Source of the DNA: Octopus vulgaris | Taxonomy: Eukaryota | Reading direction: 5' to 3' | DNA: 64,000 nucleotides | Assembly (NCBI GenBank): GCA_951406725.2 | Contig: OX597819.1 | Span: forward strand, 114,638,001-114,702,000 | Shown here: one piece after another, positions 7,446-31,628 of the stretch | Position numbering within the stretch: position 1 is the stretch's first letter | Layout of the letters: each line of letters starts with the position of its first letter | Notes under the pieces: model-generated | Databases searched by the model: none | Told to the model about the DNA's origin: nothing | What the model saw: the letters and a program-made list of their open reading frames with translations, nothing else | Program-made: the position numbers and the translations under genes

Positions 7446-8789
7446 TTCAAAAGTACAATACTATCAACAGCAACAACAGTTAATATTTTTAAAAAATCAT
7501 CCCAAACACTCAGATAGATAGTTTGGAAGATGGGAATGCTAAGAAGAAGAAACAGAACAACAACAACAATAATAGCAGTAAACAACATTCCATAGAGTGA
7601 AACGCTACTATAGTCCATTTGTATAGGAGTTGCATGAAAGTGAATGTTTTCTTAACAGAAATTGGACAAACGTTAGCATGCTGGGCGAAATGCTTTGTGG
7701 TATTTCATCCGCCGCTGCTTTCTGAGTTCAAATTCCGCCGAGGTTGACTTTGCCTTTCATCCTTTCAGGGTCGATAAATTAAGTACCAGTTACGCACTGG
7801 GGTCAATGTAATTGACATAATCTGTTCAGGGATGCTATCAGTAAGGTGAGGGTCGGCTACAAGTATTGCATATGAATTCAGTGTACATGTAGGGCTTCAC
7901 TAAGGATCAGTCCTTAACACCCTTTTGTTCACTCCTCTGTGCTGTTGACCTTGTTTTTATAGCTGATTGACTACCAGAACTAGAGAAAAAATTTCAGGTG
8001 TGGAAGCAAGGTCTAGAATTTGAGCTAATTTGTCCCCTTTATGTAATTGACATAATTTGACATAATTTGAGCTAGTTTGTCCCCTTTATGTTTAACCCCT
8101 GGTGGGCAATAAAGAGATAAGAAATTGGGCAAACAGAAGTTTTTGTCCTGTTCCAGTTACAAGCAAAAATTGTAGTTGGGAGAATTTTGTCAAACAGAAC
8201 AGCATTTTTTTTACTTGAGGAACAAATCCAGAAGAGCGAAAAACATGGATAATTATTTATCTCTTTTTATGGAATATGGAAAGTGGACTAAATTTGTTTA
8301 CATCAAATAGTACAAGCTATCCCAAAACATTAGAAGAAATCCTCTCAAATGAAAATGGCGTACCTATTTAAGAAATAAATACTTATTTAAGAAATAAACC
8401 CTTCTAGGGTGTGTGTTAATAAGTTTAATATATTCAATTTATGGCACAAATCCTGTTTGTGAAGGTGCTGAGCCTAGTAATTTTATGCTTTGGAGATTGT
8501 AGTTATGGATATTTTCAATATCTTATTATGTTTTATTATGTTTTATTATGTTTTTTTGTTGTTTAGCTTCACATAACACCTAGTTGAGAAGACCTATTTT
8601 TTCCAGCTCTTTAGGTTCTGGCTGCAAAATAAAGTGCCATTCAGTTACTGGAGTCACTGGCATCAGATACCACCTCCCTTCAAAATTGCTGGCCTTGTAC
8701 CTAAATTCAAAATTATTATTGTTGTTGTTATTATCATTATTCTGTCATTTGGCTTGCATAGTATCAGAATGTTATTCTCTTCTCCTTTT

Positions 8790-9340
8790 GAGTCATGATA
8801 GGGATAGATGAGTGGTAGGTGAGAGCTGTAGAAGCCATGTTCAGGGATGCTATCAGTAAGGTGAGGGTCGGCTACAAGTATTGCATATGAATTCAGTGTA
8901 CAAGTAGGGCTTCACTAAGGATCAGTCCTTAACACTCTTTTGTTCACTCCTCTGTGCTGTTGACCTTGTTTTTATAGCTGATTGACTACCAGAATTAGAG
9001 AAAAAATTTCAGGTGTGGAAGCAAGGTCTAGAATTTGAGCTAATTTAGCAAAAACCAAAGTCTTAGTACATAGGAAAGCAGACAAGTCACAGATGCCTTC
9101 AGGTAGATGGTCCTGCTCAATTTGTAGAAAAGGTGTAAGTAGAAACTCCAGAAGATGTACTCAGTGCAAGCTATGGACGCATAAGAAGTGCAGCAATATC
9201 TGAGGAAGGTTAACAGGGAAAATGGTCTTTGTGTGTGGCAGATGCTCTGGTAAAATAAACACTAGAAATATAAAGAAAATAGACTCCATCAAATGCCAGG
9301 GGTGATACCTAGAAGTAGTTGATAGTTTACATTAGCTTTG
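8790..9340 (+). mobile_element. RTE LINE RT fragment (also at about 17470-18005 and 25880-26415)
   Basis: Similar to 37200-37770 (gggatagatgagtgg..ggatcagtcct..tgcaagctatggac..). Confidence 0.75.
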
Positions 9341-9484
9341 TAAATGAACAATCTAGTGTGTATATTTTAATGGCCTACTAATGTACACAGTGCATTTCTC
9401 TACCCTATGTGTCAGGAAGACACTCAGCAAAAAATGGAGACGGAATTGAAAGAAGATTATAATGAAGAAAATGATAATAATATT

Positions 9485-9790
9485 GATAATAAGACGAAAA
9501 ATAGATATATACCATCCTCTTAAGTATGAAATAGCCCGGTTTTGGAAAATTAAAACGGTGAAGATAGTGCCAATTATTGTTGGGTTCTTGGGGACAGTAT
9601 CAGAAGGCATCAAGAGGGATATAAAGATAAATTGGAATAGAGGGTTCAGTAGCACTGTTACAAAAGGTTTGCATCCTTGGCACGGCCAGAATAATCAGGA
9701 AAGTATTAGATAGTTGAAGAGAACAGATAGTATGGTATTGTAGGTTGCAGGAAGCAAGCCTGCTATGCTTGCAAGTCTGCAGGAGTTCAA
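9485..9790 (+). mobile_element. Dong/R4-type non-LTR retrotransposon 3' end (also at about 18155-18450 and 26567-26862)
   Basis: KIDIYHPLKYEIARFWKIKTVKIVPIIVGFLGTVS is the C-terminus of an RLE endonuclease. Preceded by a (TAA)-like tract. Confidence 0.7.
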
Positions 9791-10262
9791 ACAAAACAAA
9801 GGCGGCGAGCTGGCAGAAACGTTAGCATGCTGGGTGGAGTGCTCAGCGGTATTTTGTCTGCCACTACGTTCTGAGTTCAAATTCCTAGCAAGATTTAAAT
9901 TCAGTATGTTATAGGACATAACTAAATACTGCATACAATTTTGTTTGTCTCACAACCAGTTTGAGTGGCAATGATAATAATGATACTAATTGGTATTCCT
10001 AATTTAGGCACAACAATAGCAGTTTTGATGGGACCTGGTTAGTCAAAGCTAATGCCAGTAGTATAGGCGAGGAATTATGAGAGCAGGTGATCAGTCAATA
10101 CCACTGATTCCAAGACTTCACTGGCACATATTTAATCCTCCTCTAAAAGGCTAAAATTCCAACTTGAAATTTGCTGTGTAGGAACTCAGGCAGTAAAGTG
10201 CTGAATCAAATGCCACAAAACTTTTCTCCAATGTGCTAAAGATTATGGCAGTTCATTGCCTT

Positions 10263-10793
10263 TGTAGTGATGTCATATTCCAGTGTGCGCACACGCAACG
10301 TCATTCTTCAGTGTGCATGTGCGGACGTCCTTCCTCAGTGTGCGTGTGCGGGGTTGTAACCTTCTGGAACTTTCTGGAAAGGCATAAGGAAGTTCCCTCA
10401 TGCACATGCGCTAGAGACTGAAGAATAAATTCTATAGCGTTCCTTAATAGCGTCGGGGACTTGAGACATGGCGATAGAAGAGAAAGGACGTATTTTTATA
10501 CGTGTGATTAGCTTATTCGCCTGTCCCAGACGCTTAGGATTTAACCTGTTCTATTAATGCTGAATTGTTGTAAGAAGCTTACAAACGTTAGAATTCAGCC
10601 TTGCTGTGTTGAACTAGGTGGATACCAGTATACCATCGTGTTTCATTGTTGAATAAGAGAATAAAGAATTGTATATATTTTTAAACTTGAATTTCGTTCC
10701 TGACTGGTAGTTTCTAGAAACAAAAGGAAAGGAAATTGTGTTGCACCCAAGTTGCACCCCAAAAGTGTAAAGAAGCAACCAGTTCCCCTTACA
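10263..10793. mobile_element. Solo LTR, 531 bp, with 4-bp TSD
   Basis: cctt|TGTAGTG...CTTACA|cctt. Units B and C show the empty site attg-cctt-taaccc (19247, 27659). Internal aataaa present. Confidence 0.88.
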
Positions 10794-11634
10794 CCTTTAA
10801 CCCTTTAATCTTTCAACTGGTCGACACCAGCCAAAATATTTTGTTTGCTTTATCTTCAAACTGGCCAGATCTTGCCTGTCACACTTACCCTACTATATTA
10901 TTCTAAAAACAATCACATAATTGAAACCTCGAAGCTACAAGCATGACTAATTCAAAAGAATGTGAATAAATAAGCATTATATTTCATAGAGAAATCTCAT
11001 TTAGTCAGGAAGCCTGTAGTTTTAAGAAGAGGGTGTAAGTCAATATCATTGGCCCCAGTACTTGACTGGTACCTTATTCTCTCAATCATAAAGATTTAAA
11101 AGGCAAAGTTGACCTCAGCAAGATTTGGGCTTAGAATGTAAAAAGTGTGAGGAAATATCTTGACATTTTTTGTCCAGTACTATTTGTGCTTCTGGTATTC
11201 ATCATTAAACAATGTAATTTTGTAAAATGTTGTTGCCATTTAGGTTTCTTAATTTTGTACATATTTGAGTTATGATAATATACTTTTAACCTAATTAGTG
11301 AAATAAAACAGGATGTATATTAATTAACAATTCATTAGAGAAGATATTACAAAACTCTCTCTGATAATGCTACTTCACATTGTATTTGTGTAAGAACTCA
11401 ACTGCAACAACAGAACAAAAAAGAATATCATCTCCAGTATACAAGTTTGGATTACAAATGATGTTAATGCACTAATCAAGTTGCTTACCTACAAGTACAT
11501 ATCTGAAACTAATGTAACATTAGTGTTTTATACAGATTTATACACATATATGAACATATGCACGTATATACATTTCAATAATCAACATATATACGTTATA
11601 CTTCCTTTACTGGAAACTACACACTTGTTTCAAC

Positions 11635-12567
11635 ATGAATGCTACTCATTTGTCTTATTCTGTTTTGTTTACAAGATTAGTTGTTTTTAGTATGATACCT
11701 TTCTTCCTAATTGTGGGACTCATAGGTAACATATTTGTGATATATATTTATGCACGACAGTCCCAGAAAAGCTATGTAGAAACATTCATCCTTGTATTAG
11801 CTGTCATTGATCTCATTGGATGTATCTTTGGAATGCCTCTGGAAATGGCTGAACTTTACCCAGCGATTCAATCAAAATATTTGTGTAAATTATACAAGTT
11901 TGTTGTCTTCATGTGTTCTACCATGTCATCCCTCATTCTTCTTATAATTGCCATTGAAAGATTCAGAAGGATATGTCATCCATCTAGCAAACAAATTACT
12001 TCAAAGATGTGCATTACTCTTATTATTTTCCTAATCGTAGCACATCTGTTGTATTGGTACTGCCACCTGTTTTCTACACTGAGGGTGTTCCCTTTTCTCT
12101 TGAAAGCAAGGTGTATATGATATGTGGCAGTGACTTCAGAAGACCATTCCTCTTGTTATATGCTCTCATGGCATTAATTATACACAGTATTGTTGTCCTC
12201 AACATGACTGTACTTTATTCATTTGTTCGGAACACGATTTATAAGCATTTCAAGAAAGAAAAAAATAATGAAGAAACTTCGGAACATGAACGAATCAGTC
12301 GCACAAACATTGTGCTTATCTCGATTTCTGTTTTGTATTTTGTCGGTTTTTCACCAACTCTAATATTTTCTGTGGTCATATATCCATATTGTGTAAGATT
12401 CTATCCTGTTACAGATATTTGAAAGTAATTGTATATCGTACTTGGATACTAAATTCATCCTTAAATCCCATGGTGTATGGATTTTGCAACAAAATGTTTT
12501 CCAGAAAAGTTTTGTAAATATATTTACTAGGGACAAAACTGGCTTTGAAATGGAAGAGAAATTTTAG
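11635..12567 (+). pseudogene. GPCR copy 2, frameshifted (pseudogene or consensus artefact)
   Basis: Full-length homology from ATG to FEMEEKF-stop, but 933 nt rather than 924 nt. Insertions of +2 (about 12041), +3 (about 12361-12374), +1 (about 12396), +1 (about 12421) and +2 (about 12500). Confidence 0.85.
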
Positions 12568-13904
12568 GACTTGGTTTATATGACATTTTCAACAGGGAGG
12601 AATACTTTCAAGTGGTAGAAACATTTTCTTTGCTGACCATAACCAACATTTGTGTGTGTGTGTGTTATATTGAAAATAACTCAAAGTTTGAGGTATTTTT
12701 AATGAAATAACTAATTTTTCCATTATTTTTCTGATGTTAGGAGAATTACATTTTCTTTCATAAAATGGAAATTTAAATATGAACATTTTAAGATATGCTG
12801 TTTGTATCCTTGACCGAGAGTCAGTCTGAGGTAGGTTATTGTCAGAAAGGTCTATTCGAACAACTAATCAATTTCTCTATTACATACTTACTCTGGATTC
12901 CGTTGTTTTAAACTTTCTATAGGAACATATCTGTTTACGTAAGTTCTACTTTAAACAAAATTATTTCAATCCTATACTTTCTGAATTACATGTTGAATTT
13001 GTATTTACAAAAATACTGAGAAGACAGACAAAATTCTTGGCGTTGTTGTCATTCTCATCATCATCATCATCATCATCATCATTACTCTTACATCCACTTT
13101 CCCATTTTTCGGCTTGTTGGTCAAGTCTTCTCCTGCACAGTACTATGCTATTCCTGTCTTTGTATCATCTTTCTAAGTCTCAGAACATTTAGACTGGCCA
13201 GTCTATAATATCTGCACTAGTATGGACATGTTACATATGCACATTATATGTCCCTAACAATGCATTCACTTCTTTTGTACAATACATTTATCAGATAAAG
13301 TGTTTAAAAATAATATACTGTGTTTTAGCAACTCTGAAACAATTTCAAAAATAATGACAACTTAAATTTCTCTTTCAATGTAAATGTTTGATATTCTTTG
13401 GTAAGCAGAAAATCTTCAATATTGTGTTATACATACATCATTAGCAATTTTCATGTTTTTAAGAAATAAACCCTTCTAGAGTTACGATTAATGTTCTTCT
13501 CATTGTCTCACCTTTCAATAATTTCTCATATGTTTTTGGTACATACAATGTATTGAAGTTTGTGTGTGTGTGTGTGTGTTAATTGTTTGATATAGTCAGT
13601 TTATGGAATGCATCTCATTGTCGAGCCTAGTAATTTTACCTTTTGGAGATTGTAGTTAATGAGTGTTTTGAATTTTACATATTTTACACATTTTTTTTTA
13701 CTCTGTTTTTGTTGTTTTAAAATCTTCAGAAAATGTTTTTAAGCACATTACTCATTCACATCCAAAATGATTGCCAAACATACTTATGCTATGAGATTGA
13801 ACACTGCAGTAGCAACAAATAATAATAATAAATACCCTGATGCAATACCAGAGGCAGGCTTGCATGGCTTCTGATCTTAACTGATTGGAAGTGTTATCAT
13901 GGGC

Positions 13905-15218
13905 ATGCTTATTAATTAGGTATGTAACAATTACTAAAAGTACTAAAGGTAAGCAATATTAAAAGCTAGGCTGTCAGGAAATATTTTTATAAATTCATGC
14001 TCTAAGAAATTTCATATAATTTCGATTTCTGAAGTTTATTGAATTTTTTAACATCAAATTCTTGCAAATTGTGACAACTGTTCTGCTCAATACCACAGAT
14101 TTGCTTGTCAGTTGTTTGACCGTAACCAGTTGAGCATGTTCCTTAGTGGCTGGTGAGTTATGCAGCTCTGATCAGGAGCAGAAGTAGTTGAGGAGGATCA
14201 TTGCTATTTGTTGAGAGAAATTCTTTGGGGTTTGAATAATTCACCTCTGGAGAAAGAAGAAAAGAAATTTCAATGTTCAAAAGGAGAAAATGGATATTTA
14301 ACAGTTTAGTTAGCAATTAATGTAAAAAAATCATCCCAAACACTCAGATTGATAGTTTCGAAGATAGCAATACTAAACAAGGGACTTGATTAGTGTCTTA
14401 ACATCATTTATAATCCAAACTTGTCTTTCTGGAGATGATATTTGTTCTGTTTTAGTTGGTCATGTGTAATGGAAACAGAATCATGTCTACATCTCTGTGC
14501 ATATTCTGACATGTGTTCCAGTCATTTTGCCGTGGTTTCATCTGATTCAGTTGCCCATCATTCTCTCTGCCGTTGTGTCTTTGCTGTCCAATTTTCTTTT
14601 TTACTTGCACAATATATGTGAAAGCTTGTTAAAAACTATCTTGCTTAGTATGCTAGGAATAGCAGTGATCACATAGTTATTATTGTAAGCCTTATAGCGT
14701 TCCAAGCAGTCATACCAACTAAATCACTTCTTTAAAAAAAAAAATTATATATATATATATATATACTAGTATATTAAGGAATTTTCATTTTATCAAAAAT
14801 ATTTATTTAACAAACTCTGGAAACTGATAATATTCTTGAAATTGTGCCTTGTATCAAAGATATATGGCTATTATTAAATTATCATTAATTAAAATAGAGG
14901 TGAGCAAGAATGAGAGACTGTTGCAAATAAAAATATAAAATGTTGCCTACAACGAATTAGTATGGTTTATTATTAAACATTAAATTCTACTCAGCAGTGA
15001 AAGCAATAAATATATTCAAATTTATGAAGAATTGGACACAGCGAATGCAATGAATATTTAAATTTGCAAGAATTTGAAGTTAAAAAAATTCAATAAACTT
15101 CAGAAATCGAAATTATATGAAATTTGTTAGAGCATGAATTTATAAAAATATTTCCTGACAGCCTAGCTTTTAATAGTGCTTACTTTTAGTAATTGTTACA
15201 TACCTAATTAATAAGCAT
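13905..15218. repeat. About 165-bp inverted repeat (13905-14070 / 15061-15218). Also 22338-22495 / 23475-23632, and left arm only at about 30765-30931
   Basis: atgcttattaattaggtatg...cttgcaaatt is the reverse complement of aatttgcaag...cctaattaataagcat. Confidence 0.9.
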
Positions 15219-15519
15219 CTTTCTCCATTATAGTCATTATCATTATTATTATTACTTTTAATAAGTCAGTGAGCTAGCAGACTCCTTTGCATGCTGGGCA
15301 GAATCCTTAGTGGCATTTCATCTGTCTATATGTTCTGTGTTCAAATTCCACCAAGGTTGACTTTACCTTTTGTCCTTTCAGGGTTGATAAAATAAGTACC
15401 AGTTGAGTAAGAGTGGGGGTCAATGTAATTGACTTACTCTCTGCCCCAAAGTTGCTGCCCTTGTGCCAAAATTTGAAATTATCATCATCATCATCATTAT
15501 TGTTATTATTATTATTTAT

Positions 15520-16659
15520 TGTCTTTGCACAGCTTCTAACGCTGGAGATGTATTACGGTGTCAACTGTTCACTACCAGTGAACTAAGGTAACACCCCTTA
15601 TTTTTCGAACACTATCCGGAGTATTCGAGCAGTTCCAAGCAGTGCTTTTTTTCTGCAAGTGCTCCACCCTTGTTGCAGCCCCTATTTGTTCCACGTACTT
15701 CTCAAGATTTTACTCACTACTCCCAGGTCTCCAACAATTATTGGTACCACTACCACTTTTTCAGTGACCACAACTGCTTAATCTCCCAAGCTAACCTGTT
15801 ATATCTATCGACTTTTCTCTCTTCCTTATCGTATACCTTGTTGTCAGCTGGGTATGCTATATCTATGATCCAGCATTGTTTGCTTTCTTTCTCAATTAAC
15901 ACTATGTCTGGTTTCCTATTCTCTATCTCATGGCCGCACTGAATCATAAAATCCTATAGGATCTTTTGCATTATCATTTTCGCTTATGCCTTTGGGTTTA
16001 TATTTGTACCACTTTTTCGCTCTGTCAAGTCCATACTTGTTGCAAAGTGTCCAATGGACAATCCTTGACGTCACTTATATTCTTTCTGGGCTAGTGGTAT
16101 ACATTGACTGGTGATATGCCATACGGTTTCGCCATTTTGTGCAAAAATTCTGCACTTATCACTTTCTGATGTGTTGTCTATTCTGTATTTGATGTAACTG
16201 GTTCTTAATGCTTGTTCTTGGGTAGCACAGGTTAGATCCTCTGTTTCTGGTTTTAAATCACTTTTAGTCATCCATAGCCATCTTTTTCTCTGTCTGTCTT
16301 ATCATCAACATCCCTATGAAACTATCCATGCATTCTTTTCTTTATTCGCCTATTTTCAGTTTCATTCATTCTCAAATGCTTGTACAGTGCTTTATCTTTG
16401 CAATCTGCCATCCTACACAAGCCTGACCTTCTTACTTCCAGTAATAGCGCTTCTGTGGCATTTTTTACATACCATGCTATGTTGTTTTCTTCTGCTCTAA
16501 TGCTGTGTTCGGATCCAATCAGTCCTATTCCCCTTCTTTGTCTTGGAACATATAGTCTGTTTATGTCAATTTTGGGTGGAGTTTCCTATATCTAATCAGC
16601 AACTTCTTTGTCTTTCTGTTTAAACTGTTTATTTCATCTACTGTCCATGCAATTACCCC
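15520..16659 (-). mobile_element. Dong/R4-clade LINE 3' part (CCHC zinc finger plus RLE endonuclease)
   Basis: ETEDLTCATQEQALRT..DKCRI..ETVWHITSQC..KEYK, and NRKPDIVLIEK..WIIDIAYP..KVDRYNRLAWEIKQLW. Ends in a (TTA)n tract. Confidence 0.85.
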
Positions 16660-18466
16660 TGCCTTTCATCCTTTCAGGGTCGATAAATTAAGTACCAGTT
16701 ACGCACTGGGGTCAATGTAGTCGACCTAATCTGTTTGTCTGTCCTAGTTTGTCCCCTTTATGTTTAACCCCTGGTGGGCAATAAAGAGATAAGAAATTGG
16801 GCAAACAGAAGTTTTTGTCCTGTCCCAGTTACAAGCAAAAATTGTAGTTGGGAGAATTTTGTCAAACAGAACAGCATTTTTTTAACTTGAGGAACAAATC
16901 CAGAAGAGGGAAAAACATGGATAATTATTTATCTCTTTTTATGGAATATGGAAAGTGGACTAAATTTGTTTACATCAAATAGTACAAGCTATCCCAAAAC
17001 ATTAGAAAAAATCCTCTCAAATGAAAATGGCGTACCTATTTAAGAAATAAATACTTATTTAAGAAATAAACCCTTCTAGGGTGTGTGTTAATAAATTTAA
17101 TATATTCAATTTATGGCACAAATCCTGTTTGTGAAGGTGCTGAGCCTAGTAATTTTATGCTTTGGAGATTGTAGTTATGGATATTTTCAATTTCTTATAT
17201 ATGTTTTGTTGTTTTTTGTTGTTTAGCTCCACATAACACCTAGTTGAGAAGACCTGTTTTTTCCAGCTCTTTAGGTTCTGGCTGCAAGCCCTGCCTACGT
17301 TAGATAAAATAAAGGGCCATTCAATTACTGGAGTCAGTGGCATCTGTTACCACCTCCATTCAAAATTGCTGGCCTTGTACCTAAATTCAAAATTATTATT
17401 GTTGTTGTTATTGTCATTATTCTGTCATTTGACTTGCATAGTATCAGAATGTTATTCTCTTCTCCTTTTGAGTCATGATAGGGATAGATGAGAGCTGTAG
17501 AAGCCATGTTCAGGGATGCTGTCAGTAAAGTGAGGGTCGGCTACAAGTATTGCATATGAATTCAGTGTACAAGTAGGGCTTCACTAAGGATCAGTCCTTA
17601 ACACTCTTTTGTTCACTCCTCTGTGCTGTTGACCTTGTTTTTATAGCTGATTGACTACCAGAACTAGAGAAAAAATTTCAGGTGTGGAAGCAAGGTCTAG
17701 AATTTGAGCTAATTTAGCAAAAACCAAAGTCTTAGTACATAGGAAAGCAGACAAGTCACAGATGCCTTCAGGGAGATGGTCATGCTGAATTTGTAGAAAA
17801 GGTGTAAGTAGAAACTCCAGAAAATGTACTCAGTGCAAGCTATGGACGCATAAGAAGTGCAGCAATATCTGAGGAAGGTTAACAGGGAAAATGGTCTTTG
17901 TGTGTGGCAGATGCACTGGTAAAATAAACACTAGAAATATAAAGAAAATAGACTCCATCAAATGCCAGGGGTGATACCTAGAAGTAGTTGATAGCTTACA
18001 TTAGCTTTGTAAATGAACAATCTAGTGTGTATATTTTAATGGCCTACTAATGTACACAGTGCATTTCTCTACCCTATGTGTCAGGAAGACACTCAGCAAA
18101 AAATGGAGACGGAATTGAAAGAAGATTATAATGAAGAAAATGATAATAATATTGATAATAAGACGAAAAATAGATATATACCATCCTCTTAAGTATGAAA
18201 TAGCCCGGTTTTGGAAAATTAAGAAGGTGAAGATAGTGCCAATTATTGTTGGGTTCTTGGAGACAGTATCAGAAGGCATCAAGAGGGATATAAAGATAAA
18301 ATGGAATAGAGGGTTCAGTAGCACTGTTACAAAAGGTTTGCCTCCTTGGCACGGCCAGAATAATCAGGAAAGTATTAGATAGTTGAAGAAAACAGATAGT
18401 ATGGTATTGTAGGTTGCAGGAAGCAAGCCTGCTATGCTTGCAAGTCTGCAGGAGTTCAAACAAAAC

Positions 18467-18700
18467 AAAGGCGGCGAGCTGGCAGAAACGTTAGCATGCG
18501 GGGTGAAGTGCTCAGCGGTATTTTGTCTGCCACTACGTTCTGAGTTCAAATTCTGCCATGGTCGACTTTGCCCTTCATTCTTTCGGGGTCGATAAATTAA
18601 GTACCAGTTACGTACTGGGGTCGATGTAATCGACTTAATCGCTTTGTCTGTCCTTGTTTGTTTCCTTTATGTTTAGCCCCTTGTGGGCAATAAAGAAATA
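18467..18700 (+). mobile_element. tRNA-derived SINE with 17-bp TSD (copy at 26879-27112, truncated copy at 9798-9884)
   Basis: Head ggcggcgagctggcagaa..gagttcaaattc (A/B-box like), core cctttcggggtcgataaa. TSD aggagttcaaacaaaac at 18450-18466 and 18701-18717. Confidence 0.88.
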
Positions 18701-20092
18701 AGGAGTTCAAACAAAACCTGATTTAAAAAGAATAATGATAATAAGGATGATGAGTATTTCCAACATAAGCACAAAGGGTTATATTTTGTGGGCAGCATAT
18801 AACAGAGATTCTGTTGACCATATTTACCTGATTGATACCATTAATAAACATAGGAAGATGAAATGCAGGATTCATCCTAGCAAGATTTAAATTCAGTATG
18901 TTATAGGACATAACTAAATACTGCATACAATTTTGTTTGTCTCACAACCAGTTTGAGTGGCAATGATAATAATGATACTAATTGGTATTCCTAATTTAGG
19001 CACAACAATAGCAGTTTTGATGGGACCTGGTTAGTCAAAGCTAATGCCAGTAGTATAGGTGAGGAATTATGAGAGCAGGTGATCAGTCAACACCACTGAT
19101 TCCAAGACTTCACTGGCATTTATTTAATCCTCCTCTAAAAGGCTAAAATTCCAACTTGAAATTTGCTGTGTAGGAACTCAGGCAGTAAAGTGCTGAATCA
19201 AATGCCGCAAATCTTTTCTCCAACGTTCTAAAGATTATGGCAGTTCATTGCCTTTAACCCTTTAATCTTTCAACTGGTCGACACCAGCCAAAATATTTTG
19301 TTTGCTTTATCTTCAAACTGGCCAGATCTTGCCTTGTCATACTTACCCTACTATATTATTCTAAAAGCAATCACATAATTGAAGTCTCAAAGCTACAAGC
19401 ATGACTAATTCAAAAGAATGTGAATAAATAAGCATTATATTTCATAGAGAAATCTGATTTAGTCATGAAGCCTGTAGTTTTAAGAAGAGGGTGTAAGTCA
19501 ATATCATTGGCTCCAGTACTTGACTGGTACCTTATTCTCTCAATCATAAAGATTTAAAAGGCAAAGTTGACCTCAGCAAGATTTGGGCTTAGAATGTAAA
19601 AAGTGTGAGGAAATATCTTGACATTTTTTGTCCAGTACTATTTGTGCTTCTGGTATTCATCATTAAACAATGTAATTTTGTAAAATGTTGTTGCCATTTA
19701 GGTTTCTTAATTTTGTACATATTTGAATTGTGATAATCTACTTTAAACCTAATTAGTGAAATAAAACAGGATGTATATTAATTAACAATTCATTAGAGAA
19801 GATATTACAAAACTCTCTCTGATAATGCTACTTCACATTGTATTTGTGTAAGAACTCAACTGCAACAACAGAACAAAAAAGAATATCATCTCCAGTATAC
19901 AAGTTTGGATTACAAATGATGTTAATGCACTAATCAAGTTGCTTACCTACAAGTACATATCTGAAACTAATGTAACATTAGTGTTTTATACAGATTTATA
20001 CACATATATGAACATATGCACGTATATACATTTCAATAATCAACATATATACGTTATACTTCCTTTACTGGAAACTACACACTTGTTTCAAC

Positions 20093-21016
20093 ATGAATGC
20101 ACCCCATTTGTCTGATCCTGTTTTGTTTACAAGATTAATTGTTTTTAGTCTCATACCTTTCTTCCTAATTGTGGGACTCATAGGTAACATATTTGTGGTA
20201 TATATTTATGCACGACAGTCCCAGAAAAGCAATGTAGAAACATTCATCCTTGTACTGGCTGTTACTGATCTCATTGGATGTATCCTTGGAATGCCTCTGG
20301 AAATGGCTGAACTTTACCCAGCAATTCAATCAAATTATTTGTGTAAATTATACAGGTTTATTGTCCTCACCTGTTCTATCATGTCATCCCTCATTCTTCT
20401 CACAGTTGCCGTCGAAAGGTTCAGAAAAATATGTTGTCCACATGGAAAACAAATTACTCCAAAACTACGCAATATCCTTGTGATTTTCATAACTGTAACA
20501 TCTGTTGTATTGGTACTGCCACCTGTTTTCTACACTGAGGGTGTTCCCTTTTCTCTTGAAAGCAAGGTGTATATGATATGTGGCTGTGATTTTAGAAGGT
20601 TATTTCTCTGGATATATGCTTTCATGGCATTAATTGTTCATAGTATTCTTCTCTACTGCATGACTGTACTTTATTTAATTGTTTTGAAGACTATCAATCA
20701 GCAATTCAAGAAAAAGCAAAGTAAAAAAGCAACTTTTGAGCAGGAACAAATCAACCACACAAGCATTGTATTTTTCTCAATTTCTGTTTTATATTTTGTG
20801 AGTTTTACACCAACTCTTATTTTCTTGGTCATATATCCATATTGTGTAAATTCTATCCTGTTACAGATATTTAAAGTAATTGTATATCGTACTTGGATAC
20901 TAAATTCATCCTTAAATCCTATGGTGTATGGATTTTGCAACAAAATGTTTTGGAAAAGTTTTGTAAATATATTTACGAGGAGTAAAAGTAACTTTGAAAT
21001 GGAGGAGAAATTTTAG
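20093..21016 (+). CDS. Intronless class A orphan GPCR, copy 3, 307 aa
   Basis: Intact ORF with GN, LAVTD, ERF, SFTP and NPMVY motifs. N-terminus is MNAP, so the sequon is lost. Confidence 0.95.
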   Translation: MNAPHLSDPVLFTRLIVFSLIPFFLIVGLIGNIFVVYIYARQSQKSNVETFILVLAVTDLIGCILGMPLEMAELYPAIQSNYLCKLYRFIVLTCSIMSSLILLTVAVERFRKICCPHGKQITPKLRNILVIFITVTSVVLVLPPVFYTEGVPFSLESKVYMICGCDFRRLFLWIYAFMALIVHSILLYCMTVLYLIVLKTINQQFKKKQSKKATFEQEQINHTSIVFFSISVLYFVSFTPTLIFLVIYPYCVNSILLQIFKVIVYRTWILNSSLNPMVYGFCNKMFWKSFVNIFTRSKSNFEMEEKF

Positions 21017-23934
21017 GACTTGGTTTATACCACATTTTCAACAGGGAGGAATACTTTCAAGTGGTAGAAACATTTTCTTTGCTGACCATAACCAACATTT
21101 GTGTGTGTGTGTGTTATATTGAAAATAACTCAAAGTTTGAGGTATTTTTAATGAAATAACTAATTTTTCCATTATTTTTCTGATGTTAGGAGAATTACAT
21201 TTTCTTTCATAAAATTGAAATTTAAATATGAACATTTTAAGATATGCTGTTTGTATCCTTGACCGAGAGTCAGTCTAAGGTAGGTTATTGTCAGAAAGGT
21301 CTATTCGAACAACTAATCAATTTCTCTATTACATACTTACTCTGGATTCCGTTGTTTTAAACTTTCTATAGGAACATATCTGTTTACGTAAGTTCTACTT
21401 TAAACAAAATTATTTCAATCCTATACTTTCTGACTTACGTGTTGAATTTGTATTTACAAAAATACTGAGAAGACAGACAAAATTCTTGGCGTTGTTGTCA
21501 TTGTCATCATCATCATCACTCTTACATCCACTTTCCCATTTTTCAGCTTGTTGGTCAAGTCTTCTCCTGCACAGTACTATGCTATTCCTGTCTTTGTATC
21601 ATCTTTCTAAGTCTCAGAACTTTTAGACTGGCCAGTCTATGATATCTGCACTAGTATGGACATGTTACATATGCACATTATATGTCCCTAACAATGCATT
21701 CACTTCTTTTGTACAATACATTTATCAGATAAAGTGTTTAAAAATAATATACTGTGTTTTAGCAACTCTGAAACAATTTCAAAAATAATGACAATTTAAA
21801 TTTCTCTTTCAATGTAAATGTTTGATATTCTTTGGTAAGCAGAAAATCTTCAATATTGTGTTATACATACATCATTAGCAATTTTCATGTTTTTAAGAAA
21901 TAAACCCTTCTAGAGTTACGATTAATGTTCTTCTCATTGTCTCACCTTTCAATAATTTCTCATATGTTTTTGGTACATACAATGTATTGAAGTTTTGTTT
22001 GTGTGTGTGTGTTAATTGTTTGATATAGTCAGTTTATGGAATGCATCTCATTGTCGAGCCTAGTAATTTTACCTTTTGGAGATTGTAGTTAATGAGTGTG
22101 TTGAATTTTACATATTTTACACATTTTTTTTTACTCTGTTTTTGTTGTTTTAAAATCTTCAGAAAATGTTTTTAAGCACATTACTCATTCACATCCAAAA
22201 TGATTGCCAAACATACTTATGCTATGAGATTGAACACTGCAGTAGCAACAAATAATAATAATAAATACCCTGATGCAATACCAGAGGCAGGCTTGCATGG
22301 CTTCTGATCTTAACTGATTGGAAGTGTTATCATGGGCATGCTTATTAATTAGGTATGTAACAATTACTAAAAGTAAGCAATATTAAAAGCTAGGCTGTCA
22401 GGAAATATTTTTATAAATTCATGCTCTAAGAAATTTCATATAATTTCGTTTTCTGAAGTTTATTGAATTTTTTTAACATCAAATTCTTGCAAATTGTGAC
22501 AACTATTCTGCTCAATACCACAGATTTGCTTGTTAGTTGTTTGACCGTAACCAGTTGAGCATGTTCCTTAGTGGCTGGTGAGTTGTGCAGCTCTGATCAG
22601 GAGCAGAAGTAGTTGAGGAGGATCATTGCTATTTGTTGAGAGAAATTCTTTGGGGTTTGAATAATTCACCTCTGGAGAAAGAAGAAAAGAAATTTCAGTG
22701 TTCAAAAGGAGAAAATGGATATTTAACAGTTTAGTAAGCAATTAATGTAAAAAAATCATCCCAAACACTCAGATTGATAGTTTCGAAGATAGCAATATTA
22801 AACAAGGGACTTGATTAGTGCCTTAACATCATTTATAATCCAAACTTGTCTTTCTGGAGATGATATTTGTTCTGTTTTATTTGGTCATGTGTAATGGAAA
22901 CAGAATCATGTCTACATCTCTGTGCATATTCTGACATGTATTCCAGTCGTTTTGCTGTGGTTTCATCTGATTCAGTTGTCCATCATTCTCTCTGCCGTTG
23001 TGTCTTTGCTGTCCAATTTTCTTTTTTACTCGCACAATATATGTGAAAGCTTGTTAAAAACTATCTTGCTTAGTATGCTAGGAATAGCAGTGATCACATA
23101 GTTATTATTGTAAGCCTTATAGCGTTCCAAGCAGCCATACCAACTAAATCACTTCTTAAAAAAAAAATATATATATATACCAGTATATTAAGGAATTTTC
23201 ATTTTATCAAAAATATTTATTTAACAAACTCTGGAAACTGATAATATTCTTGAAATTGTGCTTTGTATCAAAGATATATGGCTATTATTAAATTATCATT
23301 AATTAAAATAGAGGTGAGCAAGAATGAGAGACTGTTGCAAATAAAAATATAAAATGTTGCCTACAACGAATTAGTATGGTTTATTATTAAATATTAAATT
23401 CTACTCAGCAGTGAAAGCAATAAATATATTCAAATTTATGAAGAATTGGACACAGCGAATGCAATGAATATTTAAATTTGCAAGAATTTGAAGTTAAAAA
23501 AATTCAATAAACTCCAGAAATCGAAATTATATGAAATTTGTTAGAGCATGAATTTATAAAAATATTTCCTGACAGCCTAGCTTTTAATAGTGCTTACTTT
23601 TAGTAATTGTTACATACTTAATTAATAAGCATCTTTCTCCATTATAGTCATTATCATTATTATTATTACTTTTAATAAGTCAGTGAGCTAGCAGACTCCT
23701 AAGCATGCTGGGCAGAATCCTTAGTGGCATTTCATCTGTCTATATGTTCTGTGTTCAAATTCCACCAAGGTTGACTTTACCTTTTGTCCTTTCAGGGTTG
23801 ATAAAATAAGTACCAGTTGAGTAAGAGTGGGGGTCAATGTAATTGACTTACTCTCTGCCCCAAAGTTGCTGCTCTTGTGCCAAAATTTGAAATTATCATC
23901 ATCATCATCATTATTGTTATTATTATTATTTATT

Positions 23935-25071: not shown

Positions 25072-28000
25072 TGCCTTTCATCCTTTCAGGGTCGATAAAT
25101 TAAGTACCAGTTACGCACTGGGGTCAATGTAATCGACCTAATCTGTTTGTCTGTCCTAGTTTGTCCCCTTTATGTTTAACCCCTGGTGGGCAATAAAGAG
25201 ATAAGAAATTGGGCAAACAGAAGTTTTTGTCCTGTCCCAGTTACAAGCAAAAATTGTAGTTGGGAGAATTTTGTCAAACAGAACAGCATTTTTTTAACTT
25301 GAGGAACAAATCCAGAAGAGGGAAAAACATGGATAATTATTTATCTCTTTTTATGGAATATGGGAAGTGGACTAAATTTGTTTACATCAAATAGTACAAG
25401 CTATCCCAAAACATTAGAAGAAATCCTCTCAAATGAAAATGGCGTACCTATTTAAGAAATAAATACTTATTTAAGAAATAAACCCTTCTAGGGTGTGTGT
25501 TAATAAATTTAATATATTCAATTTATGGCACAAATCCTGTTTGTGAAGGTGCTGAGCCTAGTAATTTTATGCTTTGGAGATTGTAGTTATGGATATTTTC
25601 AATTTCTTATATATGTTTTGTTGTTTTTTGTTGTTTAGCTCCACATAACACCTAGTTGAGAAGACCTGTTTTTTCCAGCTCTTTAGGTTCTGGCTGCAAG
25701 CCCTGCCTACGTTAGATAAAATAAAGGGCCATTCAATTACTGGAGTCAGTGGCATCTGTTACCACCTCCATTCAAAATTGCTGGCCTTGTACCTAAATTC
25801 AAAATTATTATTGTTGTTGTTATTGTCATTATTCTGTCATTTGACTTGCATAGTATCAGAATGTTATTCTCTTCTCCTTTTGAGTCATGATAGGGATAGA
25901 TGAGAGCTGTAGAAGCCATGTTCAGGGATGCTGTCAGTAAAGTGAGGGTCGGCTACAAGTATTGCATATGAATTCAGTGTACAAGTAGGGCTTCACTAAG
26001 GATCAGTCCTTAACACTCTTTTGTTCACTCCTCTGTGCTGTTGACCTTGTTTTTATAGCTGATTGACTACCAGAACTAGAGAAAAAATTTCAGGTGTGGA
26101 AGCAAGGTCTAGAATTTGAGCTAATTTAGCAAAAACCAAAGTCTTAGTACATAGGAAAGCAGACAAGTCACAGATGCCTTCAGGTAGATGGTCCTGCTCA
26201 ATTTGTAGAAAAGGTGTAAGTAGAAACTCCAGAAAATGTACTCAGTGCAAGCTATGGACGCATAAGAAGTACAGCAATATCTGAGGAAGGTTAACAGGGA
26301 AAATGGTCTTTGTGTGTGGCAGATGCTCTGGTAAAATAAACACTAGAAATATAAAGAAAATAGACTCCATCAAATGCCAGGGGTGATACCTAGAAGTAGT
26401 TGATAGCTTACATTAGCTTTGTAAATGAACAATCTAGTGTGTATATTTTAATGGCCTACTAATGTACACAGTGCATTTCTCTACCCTATGTGTCAGGAAG
26501 ACACTCAGCAAAAAATGGAGACGGAATTGAAAGAAGATTATAATGAAGAAAATGATAATAATATTGATAATAAGACGAAAAATAGATATATACCATCCTC
26601 TTAAGTATGAAATAGCCCGGTTTTGGAAAATTAAGAAGGTGAAGATAGTGCCAATTATTGTTGGGTTCTTGGAGACAGTATCAGAAGGCATCAAGAGGGA
26701 TATAAAGATAAAATGGAATAGAGGGTTCAGTAGCACTGTTACAAAAGGTTTGCCTCCTTGGCACGGCCAGAATAATCAGGAAAGTATTAGATAGTTGAAG
26801 AAAACAGATAGTATGGTATTGTAGGTTGCAGGAAGCAAGCCTGCTATGCATGCAAGTCTGCAGGAGTTCAAACAAAACAAAGGCGGCAAGCTGGCAGAAA
26901 CGTTAGCATGCGGGGTGAAGTGCTCAGCGGTATTTTGTCTGCCACTACGTTCTGAGTTCAAATTCTGCCATGGTCGACTTTGCCCTTCATTCTTTCGGGG
27001 TCGATAAATTAAGTACCAGTTACGTACTGGGGTCGATGTAATCGACTTAATCGCTTTGTCTGTCCTTGTTTGTTTCCTTTATGTTTAGCCCCTTGTGGGC
27101 AATAAAGAAATAAGGAGTTCAAACAAAACCTGATTTAAAAAGAATAATGATAATAAGGATGATGAGTATTTCCAACATAAGCACAAAGGGTTATATTTTG
27201 TGGGCAGCATATAACAGAGATTCTGTTGACCATATTTACCTGATTGATACCATTAATAAACATAGGAAGATGAAATGCAGGATTCATCCTAGCAAGATTT
27301 AAATTCAGTATGTTATAGGACATAACTAAATACTGCATACAATTTTGTTTGTCTCACAACCAGTTTGAGTGGCAATGATAATAATGATACTAATTGGTAT
27401 TCCTAATTTAGGCACAACAATAGCAGTTTTGATGGGACCTGGTTAGTCAAAGCTAATGCCAGTAGTATAGGTGAGGAATTATGAGAGCAGGTGATCAGTC
27501 AACACCACTGATTCCAAGACTTCACTGGCATTTATTTAATCCTCCTCTAAAAGGCTAAAATTCCAACTTGAAATTTGCTGTGTAGGAACTCAGGCAGTAA
27601 AGTGCTGAATCAAATGCCGCAAATCTTTTCTCCAACGTTCTAAAGATTATGGCAGTTCATTGCCTTTAACCCTTTAATCTTTCAACTGGTCGACACCAGC
27701 CAAAATATTTTGTTTGCTTTATCTTCAAACTGGCCAGATCTTGCCTTGTCATACTTACCCTACTATATTATTCTAAAAGCAATCACATAATTGAAGCCTC
27801 AAAGCTACAAGCATGACTAATTCAAAAGAATGTGAATAAATAAGCATTATATTTCATAGAGAAATCTGATTTAGTCATGAAGCCTGTAGTTTTAAGAAGA
27901 GGGTGTAAGTCAATATCATTGGCTCCAGTACTTGACTGGTACCTTATTCTCTCAATCATAAAGATTTAAAAGGCAAAGTTGACCTCAGCAAGATTTGGGC

Positions 28001-30408
28001 TTAGAATGTAAAAAGTGTGAGGAAATATCTTGACATTTTTTGTCCAGTACTATTTGTGCTTCTGGTATTCATCATTAAACAATGTAATTTTGTAAAATGT
28101 TGTTGCCATTTAGGTTTCTTAATTTTGTACATATTTGAGTTGTGATAATCTACTTTAAACCTAATTAGTGAAATAAAACAGGATGTATATTAATTAACAA
28201 TTCATTAGAGAAGATATTACAAAACTCTCTCTGATAATGCTACTTCACATTGTATTTGTGTAAGAACTCAACTGCAACAACAGAACAAAAAAGAATATCA
28301 TCTCCAGTATACAAGTTTGGATTACAAATGATGTTAATGCACTAATCAAGTTGCTTACCTACAAGTACATATCTGAAACTAATGTAACATTAGTGTTTTA
28401 TACAGATTTATACACATATATGAACATATGCACGTATATACATTTCAATAATCAACATATATACGTTATACTTCCTTTACTGGAAACTACACACTTGTTT
28501 CAACATGAATGCACCCCATTTGTCTGATCCTGTTTTGTTTACAAGATTAATTGTTTTTAGTCTCATACCTTTCTTCCTAATTGTGGGACTCGTTGGTAAC
28601 ATATTTGTGATATATATTTATGCACGACAGTCCAAGAAAAGCAATGTAGAAACATTCATCCTTGTACTGGCTGTTACTGATCTCATTGGATGTATCCTTG
28701 GAATGCCTCTGGAAATGGCTGAACTTTACTCAGCAATTCAATCAAATTATTTGTGTAAATTATACAGGTTTATTGTCCTCACCTGTTCTATCATGTCATC
28801 CCTCATTCTTCTCACAGTTGCCGTCGAAAGGTTCAGAAAAAATATGTTGTCCACATGGAAAACAAATTACTCCAAAACTACGCAATATCCTTGTGATTTT
28901 CATAACTGTAACATCTGTTGTATTGGTACTGCCACCTGTTTTCTACACTGAGGGTGTTCCCTTTTCTCCTGAAAGCAAGGTGTATATGATATGTGGCTGT
29001 GATTTTAGAAGGTTATTTCTCTGGATATATGCTTTCATGGCATTAATTGTTCATAGTATTCTTCTCTACTGCATGACTGTACTTTATTTAATTGTTTTGA
29101 AGACTATCAATCAGCAATTCAAGAAAAAGCAAAGTAAAAAAGCAACTTTTGAGCAGGAACAAATCAACCACACAAGCATTGTATTTTTCTCAATTTCTGT
29201 TTTATATTTTGTGAGTTTTACACCAACTCTTATTTTCTTGGTCATATATCCATATTGTGTAAATTCTATCCTGTTACAGATATTTAAAGTAATTGTATAT
29301 CGTACTTGGATACTAAATTCATCCTTAAATCCCATGGTGTATGGATTTTGCAACAAAATGTTTTGGAAAAGTTTTGGAAATATATTTACGAGGAGTAAAA
29401 GTAACTTTGAAATGGAGGAGAAATTTTAGGACTTGGTTTATACCACATTTTCAACAGGGAGGAATACTTTCAAGTGGTAGAAACATTTTCTTTGCTGACC
29501 ATAACCAACATTTGTGTGTGTGTGTGTTATATTGAAAATAACTCAAAGTTTGAGGTATTTTTAATGAAATAACTAATTTTTCCATTATTTTTCTGATGTT
29601 AGGAGAATTACATTTTCTTTCATAAAATTGAAATTTAAATATGAACATTTTAAGATATGCTGTTTGTATCCTTGACCGAGAGTCAGTCTAAGGTAGGTTA
29701 TTGTCAGAAAGGTCTATTCGAACAACTAAACGATTTCTCTATTACATACTTACTCTGGATTCCGTTGTTTTAAACTTTCTATAGGAACATATCTGTTTAC
29801 GTAAGTTCTACTTTAAACAAAATTATTTCAATCCTATACTTTCTGACTTACGTGTTGAATTTGTATTTACAAAAATACTGAGAAGACAGACAAAATTCTT
29901 GGCGTTGTTGTCATTGTCATCATCATCATCACTCTTACATCCACTTTCCCATTTTTCGGCTTGTTGGTCAAGTCTTCTCCTGCACAGTACTATGCTATTC
30001 CTGTCTTTGTATCATCTTTCTAAGTCTCAGAACTTTTAGACTGGCCAGTCTATGATATCTGCACTAGTATGGACATGTTACATATGCACATTATATGTCC
30101 CTAACAATGCATTCACTTCTTTTGTACAATACATTTATCAGATAAAGTGTTTTAAAATAATATACTGTGTTTTAGCAACTCTGAAACAATTTCAAAAATA
30201 ATGACAACTTAAATTTCTCTTTCAATGTAAATGTTTGATATTCTTTGGTAAGCAGAAAATCTTCAATATTGTGTTATACATACATCATTAGCAATTTTCA
30301 TGTTTTTAAGAAATAAACCCTTCTAGAGTTACGATTAATGTTCTTCTCATTGTCTCACCTTTCAATAATTTCTCATATGTTTTTGGTACATACAATGTAT
30401 TGAAGTTT

Positions 30409-30439
<31 letters not shown>

Positions 30440-31597: not shown

Positions 31598-31628
<31 letters not shown>

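What the first reader, a model, noticed from the sequence alone, without database searches (positions are those of the whole stretch)
11461..21240. Inverted conservation: CDS far more diverged than its flanks between duplicated units A and B
Seen: the 174 bp before the ATG are identical by eye in copies 2 and 3 (11461-11634 vs 19919-20092), and the 3' flank is near-identical again right after the stop. Differences start at codon 3 (MNATHLSYSV..LVVFSM vs MNAPHLSDPV..LIVFSL) and run through the ORF. Many copy-2 residues match other paralogs (LVVFSMIP as in copies 5 and 7, SRTNIVLISIS as in copy 1). Inference: ORF-bounded gene conversion swaps receptor sequence into a constant regulatory frame, like a cassette. 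This is the best candidate for an undescribed diversification system in the window.
Basis: partly seen in the sequence, partly recalled or inferred. Interest (0 to 1): 0.8.

Follow-up and report, generated by a model that had tools for sequence, protein, structure and literature searches.

The report
Octopus receptor gene swap between paralogs
Neighbouring copies of an octopus receptor gene have 99% identical flanking DNA but carry coding sequences from two old, different receptor lineages, most likely because ordinary recombination between look-alike genes put one receptor's coding sequence into the other's surroundings, a known way for receptor families to diversify rather than a new cassette system.

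Summary
Units A and B differ at 62 of 7448 flank sites (0.8%) but 116 of 924 coding sites (12.6%); dS outside two suspect patches is 0.31. The genes are single-exon rhodopsin-family GPCRs in an octopod tandem array. Copy 2 belongs to lineage X (O. sinensis P0001, O. bimaculoides P0005). Copies 3/4 belong, from residue 123, to lineage Y (P0006). A clade of copies 2-4 is rejected (p-AU 5e-11). Contigs of runs X2, X4 and X6 join the X-type end to this 3' flank; run X3 joins the Y-type end to it. The 5' third is a patchwork of short tracts in both genes, so this is several homology-limited exchanges, not one cassette event. Copy 2's five insertions and two copy-3-identical patches look like consensus errors. 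Whether A and B/C are tandem or allelic is open. The pattern is known from opsins, olfactory receptors and RPP8; an earlier scan note (e1-8666819) saw a similar pattern in another gene family of this genome. New member of a known kind; interest 0.35.

The parts
8072..10262 (+). Upstream 'tail' of unit A, homologous to 16744-19250 and 25156-27662
   Evidence: blastn self-hits; A is the odd copy at 38 of 47 variable sites in 2163 columns
10263..10793 (.). 531-bp insertion present upstream of A only; TG...CA ends and 4-bp target duplication, likely a solo LTR
   Evidence: sequence comparison with unit B; element class inferred
10794..11634 (+). 5' flank of unit A (shared regulatory frame, likely native to lineage X)
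   Evidence: 12 of 841 differences from B; 228-bp contigs of X2, X4 bridge it to the CDS start
11635..12567 (+). Copy 2: lineage-X GPCR CDS, frameshifted as assembled
   Evidence: aa 101-135, 165-244, 287-307 match P0001 at 22/22, 12/12, 34/36, 43/44, 20/21; tree 100/99 with P0001+P0005
11656..11694 (+). Short 5' tract in copy 2 with alleles mostly shared with copy 5; likely a micro-conversion
   Evidence: alignment; an 89-bp contig of X1 matches 11613-11701 with no difference
12040..12128 (+). Patch 1: identical to copy 3, 2-bp insertion at its left edge; likely consensus artefact
   Evidence: replaced by 67 other letters (69 skipped) in contigs of X2 and X4; P0001 matches only 15 of 29 residues here
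12370..12502 (+). Patch 2: copy-3/4 sequence with four insertions that combine both alleles; likely consensus artefact
   Evidence: contigs of X2 and X4 leave out the extra letters; with the X2 differences the frame is open and matches P0001 at 145 of 147 residues
12568..14745 (+). 3' flank of unit A (likely native to lineage X)
   Evidence: 29 of 2138 differences from B; 355-bp contigs of X2, X4 join it to the copy-2-type C-terminus
14777..19250 (+). Remainder of the A-B spacer (repeat fragments and tail), repeated between B and C
   Evidence: 21 of 4469 differences; period about 8.4 kb
19251..20092 (+). 5' flank of unit B
   Evidence: 2 of 842 differences from C
20093..21016 (+). Copy 3: intact 307-aa chimeric GPCR; aa 1-66 closest to P0001 (X), aa 88-122 closest to P0002, aa 123-307 closest to P0006 (Y)
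   Evidence: PF00001 E 1.5e-28; segment identities; tree 99/94 with P0006; X1 contigs match it
20272..20350 (+). Tract of copy 3 identical to copy 6 (inside an 89-bp exact match)
   Evidence: run of 28 polymorphic sites, permutation p 0.006 after correction; test is lenient here because the region is conserved
21017..23155 (+). 3' flank of unit B, same sequence as A's; inferred right edge of the foreign tract lies at or just after 21004-21031
   Evidence: last clustered A/B differences 21030-21031; 331-bp contig of X3 bridges the copy-3-type C-terminus to this flank
27663..31618 (+). Unit C with copy 4 (28505-29429), a recent duplicate of B; +1 A in a homopolymer at 28837; ends in an (AT)n run
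   Evidence: CDS 8 of 924 differences from copy 3

Best explanation
Units A, B and C share one flanking frame but hold coding sequences of two old receptor lineages, most likely because ectopic (non-allelic) recombination replaced most of the resident lineage-X coding sequence with lineage-Y sequence in the ancestor of B and C. Shown: the flanks are 99% identical; copy 2 groups with X proteins and copies 3/4 (from residue 123) with a Y protein, both lineages being present in O. bimaculoides; X-in-frame and Y-in-frame junctions both occur in contigs of independent runs. Inferred: X is the original resident; the exchange was one long conversion or two successive crossovers, with endpoints in the conserved 5' third and at the conserved 3' end of the ORF, because those are the only places where old paralogs keep long matches; further short tracts from other paralogs were added to the 5' third of both genes; the chimera then duplicated to give B and C. 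The predicted effect is a Y-type binding pocket and signalling loops under X's promoter and 3' UTR. The frameshifts and two copy-3-identical patches in copy 2 are likely errors of a consensus built from mixed X and Y reads.
For: Age mismatch: dS copy 2/copy 3 is 0.31 outside the patches and 0.54 in the centre, within the 0.33-0.73 range of old paralog pairs, against 0.8% in the flanks; dN/dS about 0.5. Tree of 113 unpatched central and C-terminal columns: copy 2+P0001+P0005 100/99, copies 3/4+P0006 99/94, clade of copies 2-4 rejected, p-AU 4.7e-11; in the 5' 87 residues copies 3/4 sit with P0001 (84/90, not starred). Junctions: X2 and X4 each have a 598-bp copy-2-type contig and a 355-bp contig (3 other letters against A) that runs from 69 bp inside the CDS into the 3' flank; X6 has a like 357-bp contig. 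X2 and X6 also hold a separate 621-bp copy-3-like centre (35 and 36 other letters) whose listed alleles turn copy 3 towards P0006 at residues 107, 111, 115, 188, 195, 196; in X2 all depth at 20983-21004 (55.9 of 55.9) is X-type. X3 has a 331-bp contig with the copy-3-type C-terminus and the same flank, its 3 other letters all in the flank. Order: A is the odd unit at 58 of 74 variable flank sites between 8072 and 13500. Homology limit: mean identity of copy 3 to five old paralogs is 0.81-0.92 in CDS nt 1-250 and 0.79-0.92 in the last 120 nt, against 0.52-0.66 in the 150 bp before the ATG; longest exact matches up to 89 bp in CDS 1-300 against 16-22 bp upstream. Artefact: contigs of X2 and X4 lack the insertions, and the X1 copy-3 contig runs unbroken through the patch-1 equivalent.
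Against: No outgroup DNA of the locus was obtained, so polarity rests on parsimony over runs X2, X4, X6. No native Y gene with its own flank was identified in the window or with certainty in any run, so conversion (donor kept) cannot be told from two crossovers. The middle of the swapped tract is only about 70-80% like the other paralogs, which is low for one long conversion. Old paralogs keep some likeness beyond the stop (0.74-0.86 in several 50-bp bins), so homology alone does not force the right edge. Contig depth is no copy number, contigs drop rare variants, X1 and X4 were read to about 80% and 76%, and no listed contig spans a whole gene with both flanks. The 5' assignments have weak support.
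Confidence: 0.7

Rival explanations
1. Same swap, different arrangement: X-in-frame and Y-in-frame are alleles of one locus, and unit A (or its X consensus) comes from the other haplotype, placed in or over a tandem array of Y units by the assembler. Not exclusive with the best explanation.
For: A differs from B/C by 1.2-1.8% over 8072-13500, and by a solo-LTR-like insertion, while B and C differ by 0.2-0.5%. A mixed X/Y consensus in copy 2 is what reads of two alleles at one position would give. Heterotype false duplications are common and often on the same scaffold (PMC9516828, passages). X3 has A's exact 5' flank alleles and a Y-type end (linkage not shown). In X1, flank and copy-3 centre have like depth (120.7, 118.6, 120.2) and the copy-2 branch 36.1.
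Against: No gap or N between the units. The distal 3' flank shows all three units about equally apart (8, 8, 13 odd sites), as expected of real unequal crossovers. X1 depths also fit three tandem units plus a native Y gene.
Confidence: 0.3
2. Opsin-like concerted evolution: X and Y are old neighbours whose flanks were homogenised by frequent conversion while selection kept the coding sequences apart.
For: Gives the same inverted profile; described for red/green opsins and colobine RNases (PMC3924837, passages and section 4 part 1). dS at old-paralog level fits.
Against: In X2, X4 and X6 the flank contigs lie at about the depth of one CDS type and the listed 3' junction is X-type, although a Y-like centre is present in X2 and X6, so the flanks are not shared by X and Y there. 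Flanks of other old paralogs are patchy and cannot be overwritten over 8 kb by ordinary conversion. Divergence covers most of the ORF, not a narrow peak.
Confidence: 0.12
3. One reading: a dedicated cassette system repeatedly swaps receptor ORFs into a constant regulatory frame, copy 2 being the recipient, perhaps in somatic cells.
For: Edges fall at codon 3 and about 15 bp after the stop; at least three coding versions occur in this frame across the window and runs X2, X3.
Against: Copy 2 is the orthologue of P0001/P0005 over most of its length. The 5' third is a patchwork, not one tract. Other paralogs have intact ORFs and their own homologous upstream regions, unlike silent cassettes. X2 and X4, from different studies, give contigs of the same lengths (598, 355, 228 bp), as for a stable inherited gene. 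No repeat pair brackets the ORF: the nearest dinucleotide runs are at -280 and +83, outside the edges.
Confidence: 0.05
4. The whole contrast is an assembly artefact: copy 2 equals copy 3 in the animal and was overwritten by reads of an unassembled paralog.
For: Copy 2 does carry signs of a mixed consensus.
Against: Both junction types exist in contigs of other runs. In X1 the shared flank contigs end at 11642 and begin at 12583, exactly where A and B diverge, and a copy-2-type branch matches 11613-11701 (only 22 bp upstream of the ATG, under the tool's 31-letter bridging rule).
Confidence: 0.04
5. Rapid point mutation under positive selection after a recent duplication.
For: 79 of 119 codon-level differences are non-synonymous.
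Against: dS is about 37 times the flank divergence, dN/dS about 0.5, and both sequences have close relatives in other species.
Confidence: 0.01

Closest known systems
Gene conversion in vertebrate olfactory receptor clusters (review PMC1995454, passages seen, citing Sharon et al. 1999, not read)
   Same: Tandem arrays of GPCRs with single-exon coding regions; mosaic receptors, and conversion of entire coding regions that replaces one paralog by another.
   Different: Here an octopod neuropeptide-receptor-like family; donor and recipient are far apart (central dS about 0.5), and ligands and tissue are unknown.
Conversion restricted to coding regions in yeast whole-genome duplicates (PMC3924837, section 4 part 1 read)
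   Same: Exchange stops at the ORF because purifying selection keeps homology there and not in the flanks.
   Different: There it homogenises a pair; here exchange with a third paralog makes two recent duplicates differ.
Primate red/green opsins and colobine RNase1/1B (PMC3924837, passages)
   Same: Non-coding DNA more alike than coding DNA between paralogs.
   Different: There the non-coding DNA is homogenised and selection spares the coding part; here the runs suggest that the coding part was moved into another gene's flanks.
Arabidopsis RPP8 family (bioRxiv 10.1101/694240, passages incl. part of the abstract)
   Same: Tandem duplicates that share less with each other than with another paralog; copy-number polymorphism; crossing over plus intergenic conversion.
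   Different: NLR immune genes with population data and inferred balancing selection; none of that is shown here.
Cephalopod class A GPCR expansions, groups 1 and 2 of Ritschard et al. 2019 (PMC6408891, passages)
   Same: Rhodopsin-family, neuropeptide-receptor-like, tandem clusters in Octopus; the paper names gene conversion as one possible way to gain new regulatory domains.
   Different: Those groups include squid sequences; 17 of 17 close relatives found here are from Octopus. Membership needs the paper's gene lists, which were not opened.
Sea urchin Sp185/333 (SpTransformer) cluster (PMC3091723, passages)
   Same: Small genes in tandem segmental duplications with mosaic coding sequence and nearby microsatellites.
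   Different: There conservation extends to bracketing microsatellites; here the tract edges lie inside them and no common bracketing pair was found.

Membership tests
Class A (rhodopsin-family) GPCR | 7tm_1 domain above the curated cut-off | tested here: met
   4 of 4 proteins scanned hit PF00001 at 100-118 bits, cut-off 30.5
Class A (rhodopsin-family) GPCR | Seven hydrophobic segments, D/ERY-like and NPxxY motifs, TM3-ECL2 cysteine pair | tested here: met
   ERF at 108-110, NPxxY at 275-279, C84 and C163 in 5 of 5 intact copies checked; hydropathy gave seven segments, the last two overlapping; motif names recalled
Interlocus gene conversion / ectopic recombination in tandem receptor arrays | Segment-wise tree incongruence between flank and coding sequence | tested here: met
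   p-AU 4.7e-11 for the centre and 0.0008 for aa 88-122 against 0.8% flank divergence
Interlocus gene conversion / ectopic recombination in tandem receptor arrays | Donor lineage identifiable | tested here: met
   P0006 lineage for aa 123-307; copy-3-like contigs in X2, X3, X6
Interlocus gene conversion / ectopic recombination in tandem receptor arrays | Tract ends lie in stretches of high donor-recipient identity | tested here: inconclusive
   Identity to old paralogs is highest in the 5' third and at the 3' end of the ORF, but the donor's own DNA was not in hand
Gene conversion in the strict sense | Non-reciprocal: donor gene kept unchanged at its own locus | not testable with these tools
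   No whole genome held; no Y gene with another flank in the window
Programmed cassette switching (yeast mating type, trypanosome VSG; features recalled) | Silent donors without their own promoters | tested here: not met
   Copies 1, 6, 7, 8 have intact ORFs and their own homologous upstream regions; expression not tested
Programmed cassette switching (yeast mating type, trypanosome VSG; features recalled) | One tract with fixed boundaries or cis signals at both ends | tested here: not met
   Patchwork from several donors in the 5' third; no bracketing repeat pair among dinucleotide runs; other signal types not searched
Programmed cassette switching (yeast mating type, trypanosome VSG; features recalled) | Variation among cells of one individual | tested here: inconclusive
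   Long single versions per run, but contigs drop rare variants
Selection-maintained divergence peak under concerted evolution (opsin type) | Both paralogs share homogenised non-coding DNA in each related species | tested here: not met
   In X2, X4, X6 the listed 3' junction is X-type and flank depth is like that of one CDS type; depth is a weak measure
Cephalopod GPCR expansion groups 1/2 (Ritschard et al. 2019) | Placement inside the published clades | not tested
   Supplementary gene lists not opened

The most novel reading that the evidence does not exclude
This locus is a germline 'receptor-swap' hotspot: one promoter and 3' UTR frame is repeatedly loaded with coding sequence from deeply diverged paralogs, the X and Y forms segregate as balanced alleles, and unequal crossover is now fixing both forms on one chromosome, giving octopuses an inherited, fast-cycling way to re-assign ligand specificity to an expression domain.
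Probability: 0.12. Interest if true: 0.7.

Novelty: new member of a known kind. Interest (0 to 1): 0.35.

Why it matters
If true, it is a datable case in an octopod of a receptor gaining another paralog's regulatory frame, the route that Ritschard et al. listed as possible for expression shifts in cephalopod GPCR expansions. It is directly testable: compare tissue expression of the X gene, the Y gene and the chimera, and genotype populations for frame and coding type. It also warns that frameshifted 'pseudogenes' in this array (copy 2, perhaps copies 4 and 9) may be consensus errors. It does not establish a new diversification machinery.

Tried and rejected
No whole genome is held for this window, so a native Y gene outside the window could not be sought. 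A metagenome scan with the family alignment found no locus: 0 of 71 pattern matches confirmed. X6 record 32 (20952-21032, 4 other letters, then an unlike flank) first looked like the native Y gene, but the letters before it read I-F-R where the Y clade has W, so it may be a P0003/P0011-type paralog; dropped as evidence. No copy-2-type centre was laid in X1 or X3; holes prove nothing. A rough k-mer count puts X1's share of 0.77 between 0.63 (no X centre) and 0.84 (X centre, patch junctions absent), below 0.92-1.0; suggestive only. Five of the 24 listed runs were laid (X1, X2, X3, X4, X6). The permutation test over 28 pairs gave three runs under 0.05 after correction (two are patch 1, one is copy 3/copy 6); no run with copy 5 was clear for copy 2 (p 0.17). 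In trees copy 5 was left out of three of four segments (truncated) and P0018 of all. Microsatellite bracketing as in Sp185/333 was not found. Closest solved structures are only distant (NPFF, CCK, NPY receptors, E about 1e-23 to 1e-19), so the ligand is not assigned. One search had an offset error and was repeated. Paper searches for this array (20 of 130 and 15 of 346 hits listed) showed no report of conversion in it; subscription journals are not covered. Earlier-findings look-ups by sequence and by nearby place returned nothing.


Full report
What the region is. The window holds nine copies of a single-exon gene of about 307 codons, all on the + strand: copy 1 at 1768, copy 2 at 11635, copy 3 at 20093, copy 4 at 28505, a truncated copy 5 at 39445, and copies 6-9 at 41984, 46541, 59740 and 62631. 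Four of four scanned proteins are rhodopsin-family GPCRs. The 17 close relatives found are all from Octopus sinensis and O. bimaculoides, 65-78% identical to copy 3; the nearest solved structures are distant peptide receptors. Copies 2, 3 and 4 sit in units A, B and C of an 8.4-kb tandem repeat.

The observation. It is real and far beyond chance: A and B differ at 62 of 7448 flank sites and at 116 of 924 coding sites (p 1e-68). The identical run before the gene is 11288-11642, and the differences run from codon 3 to 15 bp after the stop. But two patches inside copy 2 (12042-12128 and 12373-12500) equal copy 3/4, and five insertions, all in copy 2, lie at the edges of or inside these patches.

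The coding sequences are old. Outside the patches dS is 0.31 and dN 0.15; in the centre dS is 0.54, like pairs of old paralogs (0.33-0.73). Point mutation since the duplication cannot give this. Copy 2 matches O. sinensis P0001 at 131 of 135 residues in its five unpatched segments after residue 100, but at only 15 of 29 in patch 1, where it equals copy 3. In a tree of the unpatched centre and C-terminus, copy 2 joins P0001 and O. bimaculoides P0005 (lineage X, 100/99) and copies 3/4 join O. bimaculoides P0006 (lineage Y, 99/94); holding copies 2-4 together is rejected at p-AU 4.7e-11. Both lineages occur in O. bimaculoides, so they are older than the flanks' 1% divergence by a wide margin. Copy 3 is itself a mosaic: residues 1-66 are closest to P0001, 101-122 to P0002 (21 of 22), 123-307 to P0006, with an 89-bp exact match to copy 6 near residues 60-86. 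Copy 2 has copy-5-like alleles at residues 9-20. The 5' assignments are weakly supported (82-86 bootstrap).

Independent DNA. Contigs of five coded runs were laid on A and B. X2 and X4 (different studies) each have one 598-bp contig over 11914-12519 that follows copy 2 in its divergent parts, replaces patch 1 by 67 other letters and leaves out the other insertions. With the differences listed for X2 the frame is open and matches P0001 at 145 of 147 residues. In both runs a 355-bp contig carries the copy-2-type C-terminus into the shared 3' flank, and a 228-bp contig joins the shared 5' flank to the start of the CDS; X6 has contigs of the same kind. X2 and X6 also have a separate 621-bp copy-3-like centre whose listed alleles agree with P0006 where copy 3 departs from it, while the listed 3' junction is X-type. 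X3, by contrast, has a 331-bp contig that bridges the copy-3-type C-terminus to the same flank. X1 matches unit B at all but one site of its eight listed contigs, and its flank contigs stop at 11642 and restart at 12583, where A and B part. So both X-in-frame and Y-in-frame exist in real DNA. Depth figures (flank 54-63, X centre 49, Y-like centre 51 in X2) fit one frame holding X, but depth of contigs is not copy number.

Mechanism. The simplest history is inferred as follows. The frame belonged to X. After A and the B/C ancestor separated (A is the odd unit at 58 of 74 variable flank sites over 8072-13500) and before B and C did (central CDS identical), Y sequence replaced residues 123-307 and probably the first 15 bp of the 3' flank, by one long conversion or by two crossovers. 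Short tracts from other paralogs were added in the 5' third of both genes. The ORF-bounded look needs no special machine: old paralogs share 81-92% in the first 250 coding bases and 79-92% in the last 120, but 52-66% just upstream of the ATG, so homology-dependent exchange starts and ends inside or at the edge of the ORF. Some homology persists after the stop, so the right edge is less fully explained. The swapped part covers the predicted TM4 to TM7, which in class A receptors carries most of the binding pocket and the third intracellular loop (established knowledge); the chimera would therefore signal like Y in X's expression domain. That is untested.

The artefact inside copy 2. Each insertion contains the letters of both the copy-3 allele and the allele of other paralogs (alignment), two of them with copy-3 sequence on both sides. 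This is what a column-wise consensus of two read classes yields and is unlikely from recombination (inference). The X1 copy-3 contig runs unbroken through the patch-1 equivalent, which a shared 87-bp stretch would tend to break. I put the artefact reading at about 85%. It raises a live rival for the layout: A and B/C may be alleles placed in tandem (PMC9516828, passages). Short contigs cannot decide this; it changes the arrangement, not the swap.

Comparison with what is known. Coding DNA more diverged than non-coding DNA between paralogs is described for opsins and colobine RNases, and conversion limited to coding regions for yeast duplicates (PMC3924837, passages and section 4 part 1). Mosaic receptors and whole-coding-region replacement are described for olfactory receptor clusters (PMC1995454, passages), and tandem duplicates closer to a distant paralog than to each other for RPP8 (10.1101/694240, passages). 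Tandem class A GPCR expansions in cephalopods are described (PMC6408891 and PMC11886862, passages); membership in the published groups was not tested because the supplements were not opened. The features of programmed cassette systems that could be tested were not met. Two searches listed no paper on conversion in this array.

Verdict. Observation confirmed; interpretation partly supported, with the direction reversed and no sign of a dedicated system. New member of a known kind. Interest 0.35: a clean, recent, apparently polymorphic receptor chimera between deeply diverged paralogs in an octopod, worth a population and expression follow-up.

Noticed in passing
window 10263-10793: 531-bp insertion upstream of unit A only, TG...CA ends with a 4-bp target duplication; likely a solo LTR 840 bp before the ATG, which could alter expression of copy 2.
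   Followed up: partly
window 62631-63611 (copy 9): In-frame 57-bp tandem duplication at TM3/ICL2: the first version resembles P0017, the second copy 8. Either a real unequal exchange or another union-type consensus error.
   Followed up: no
window 35025-35862 and 39366-39810: An orphan 5' flank ends in a (CA)/(TA) run at about 35860; truncated copy 5 starts after a (TA) run at about 39366. A 3.5-kb insertion with a reverse-transcriptase-like fragment (36785-37171) may have split this gene from its promoter.
   Followed up: partly
window 41984-42907 vs 46541-47464: Copies 6 and 7 show a milder form of the same contrast: CDS 37 of 924 differences, clustered at 42198-42553, against 37 of 2089 in the 5' flank (3' flank 22 of 550).
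   Followed up: partly
window 28592-28634 (copy 4): Four differences from copy 3 within 43 bp, two of them shared with copies 5, 6 and 7; likely a micro-conversion. The +1 A at 28837 lies in a homopolymer and no such insertion is listed.
   Followed up: partly
protein P0008 (O. bimaculoides): Copy-6-like first part fused, with a duplicated segment, to a P0009-like end: chimeras or assembly joins occur in this family in another species too.
   Followed up: no
window 20495-20934: Of ten listed differences between copy 3 and the X2 copy-3-like contig here, most change residues (7 of 9 codons; only the best-supported rows were listed), a possible sign of fast protein change on the copy-3 lineage.
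   Followed up: partly
window 6773-7080 and 55157-55563: Further orphan pieces of the family's upstream region without a CDS, suggesting lost gene copies.
   Followed up: no
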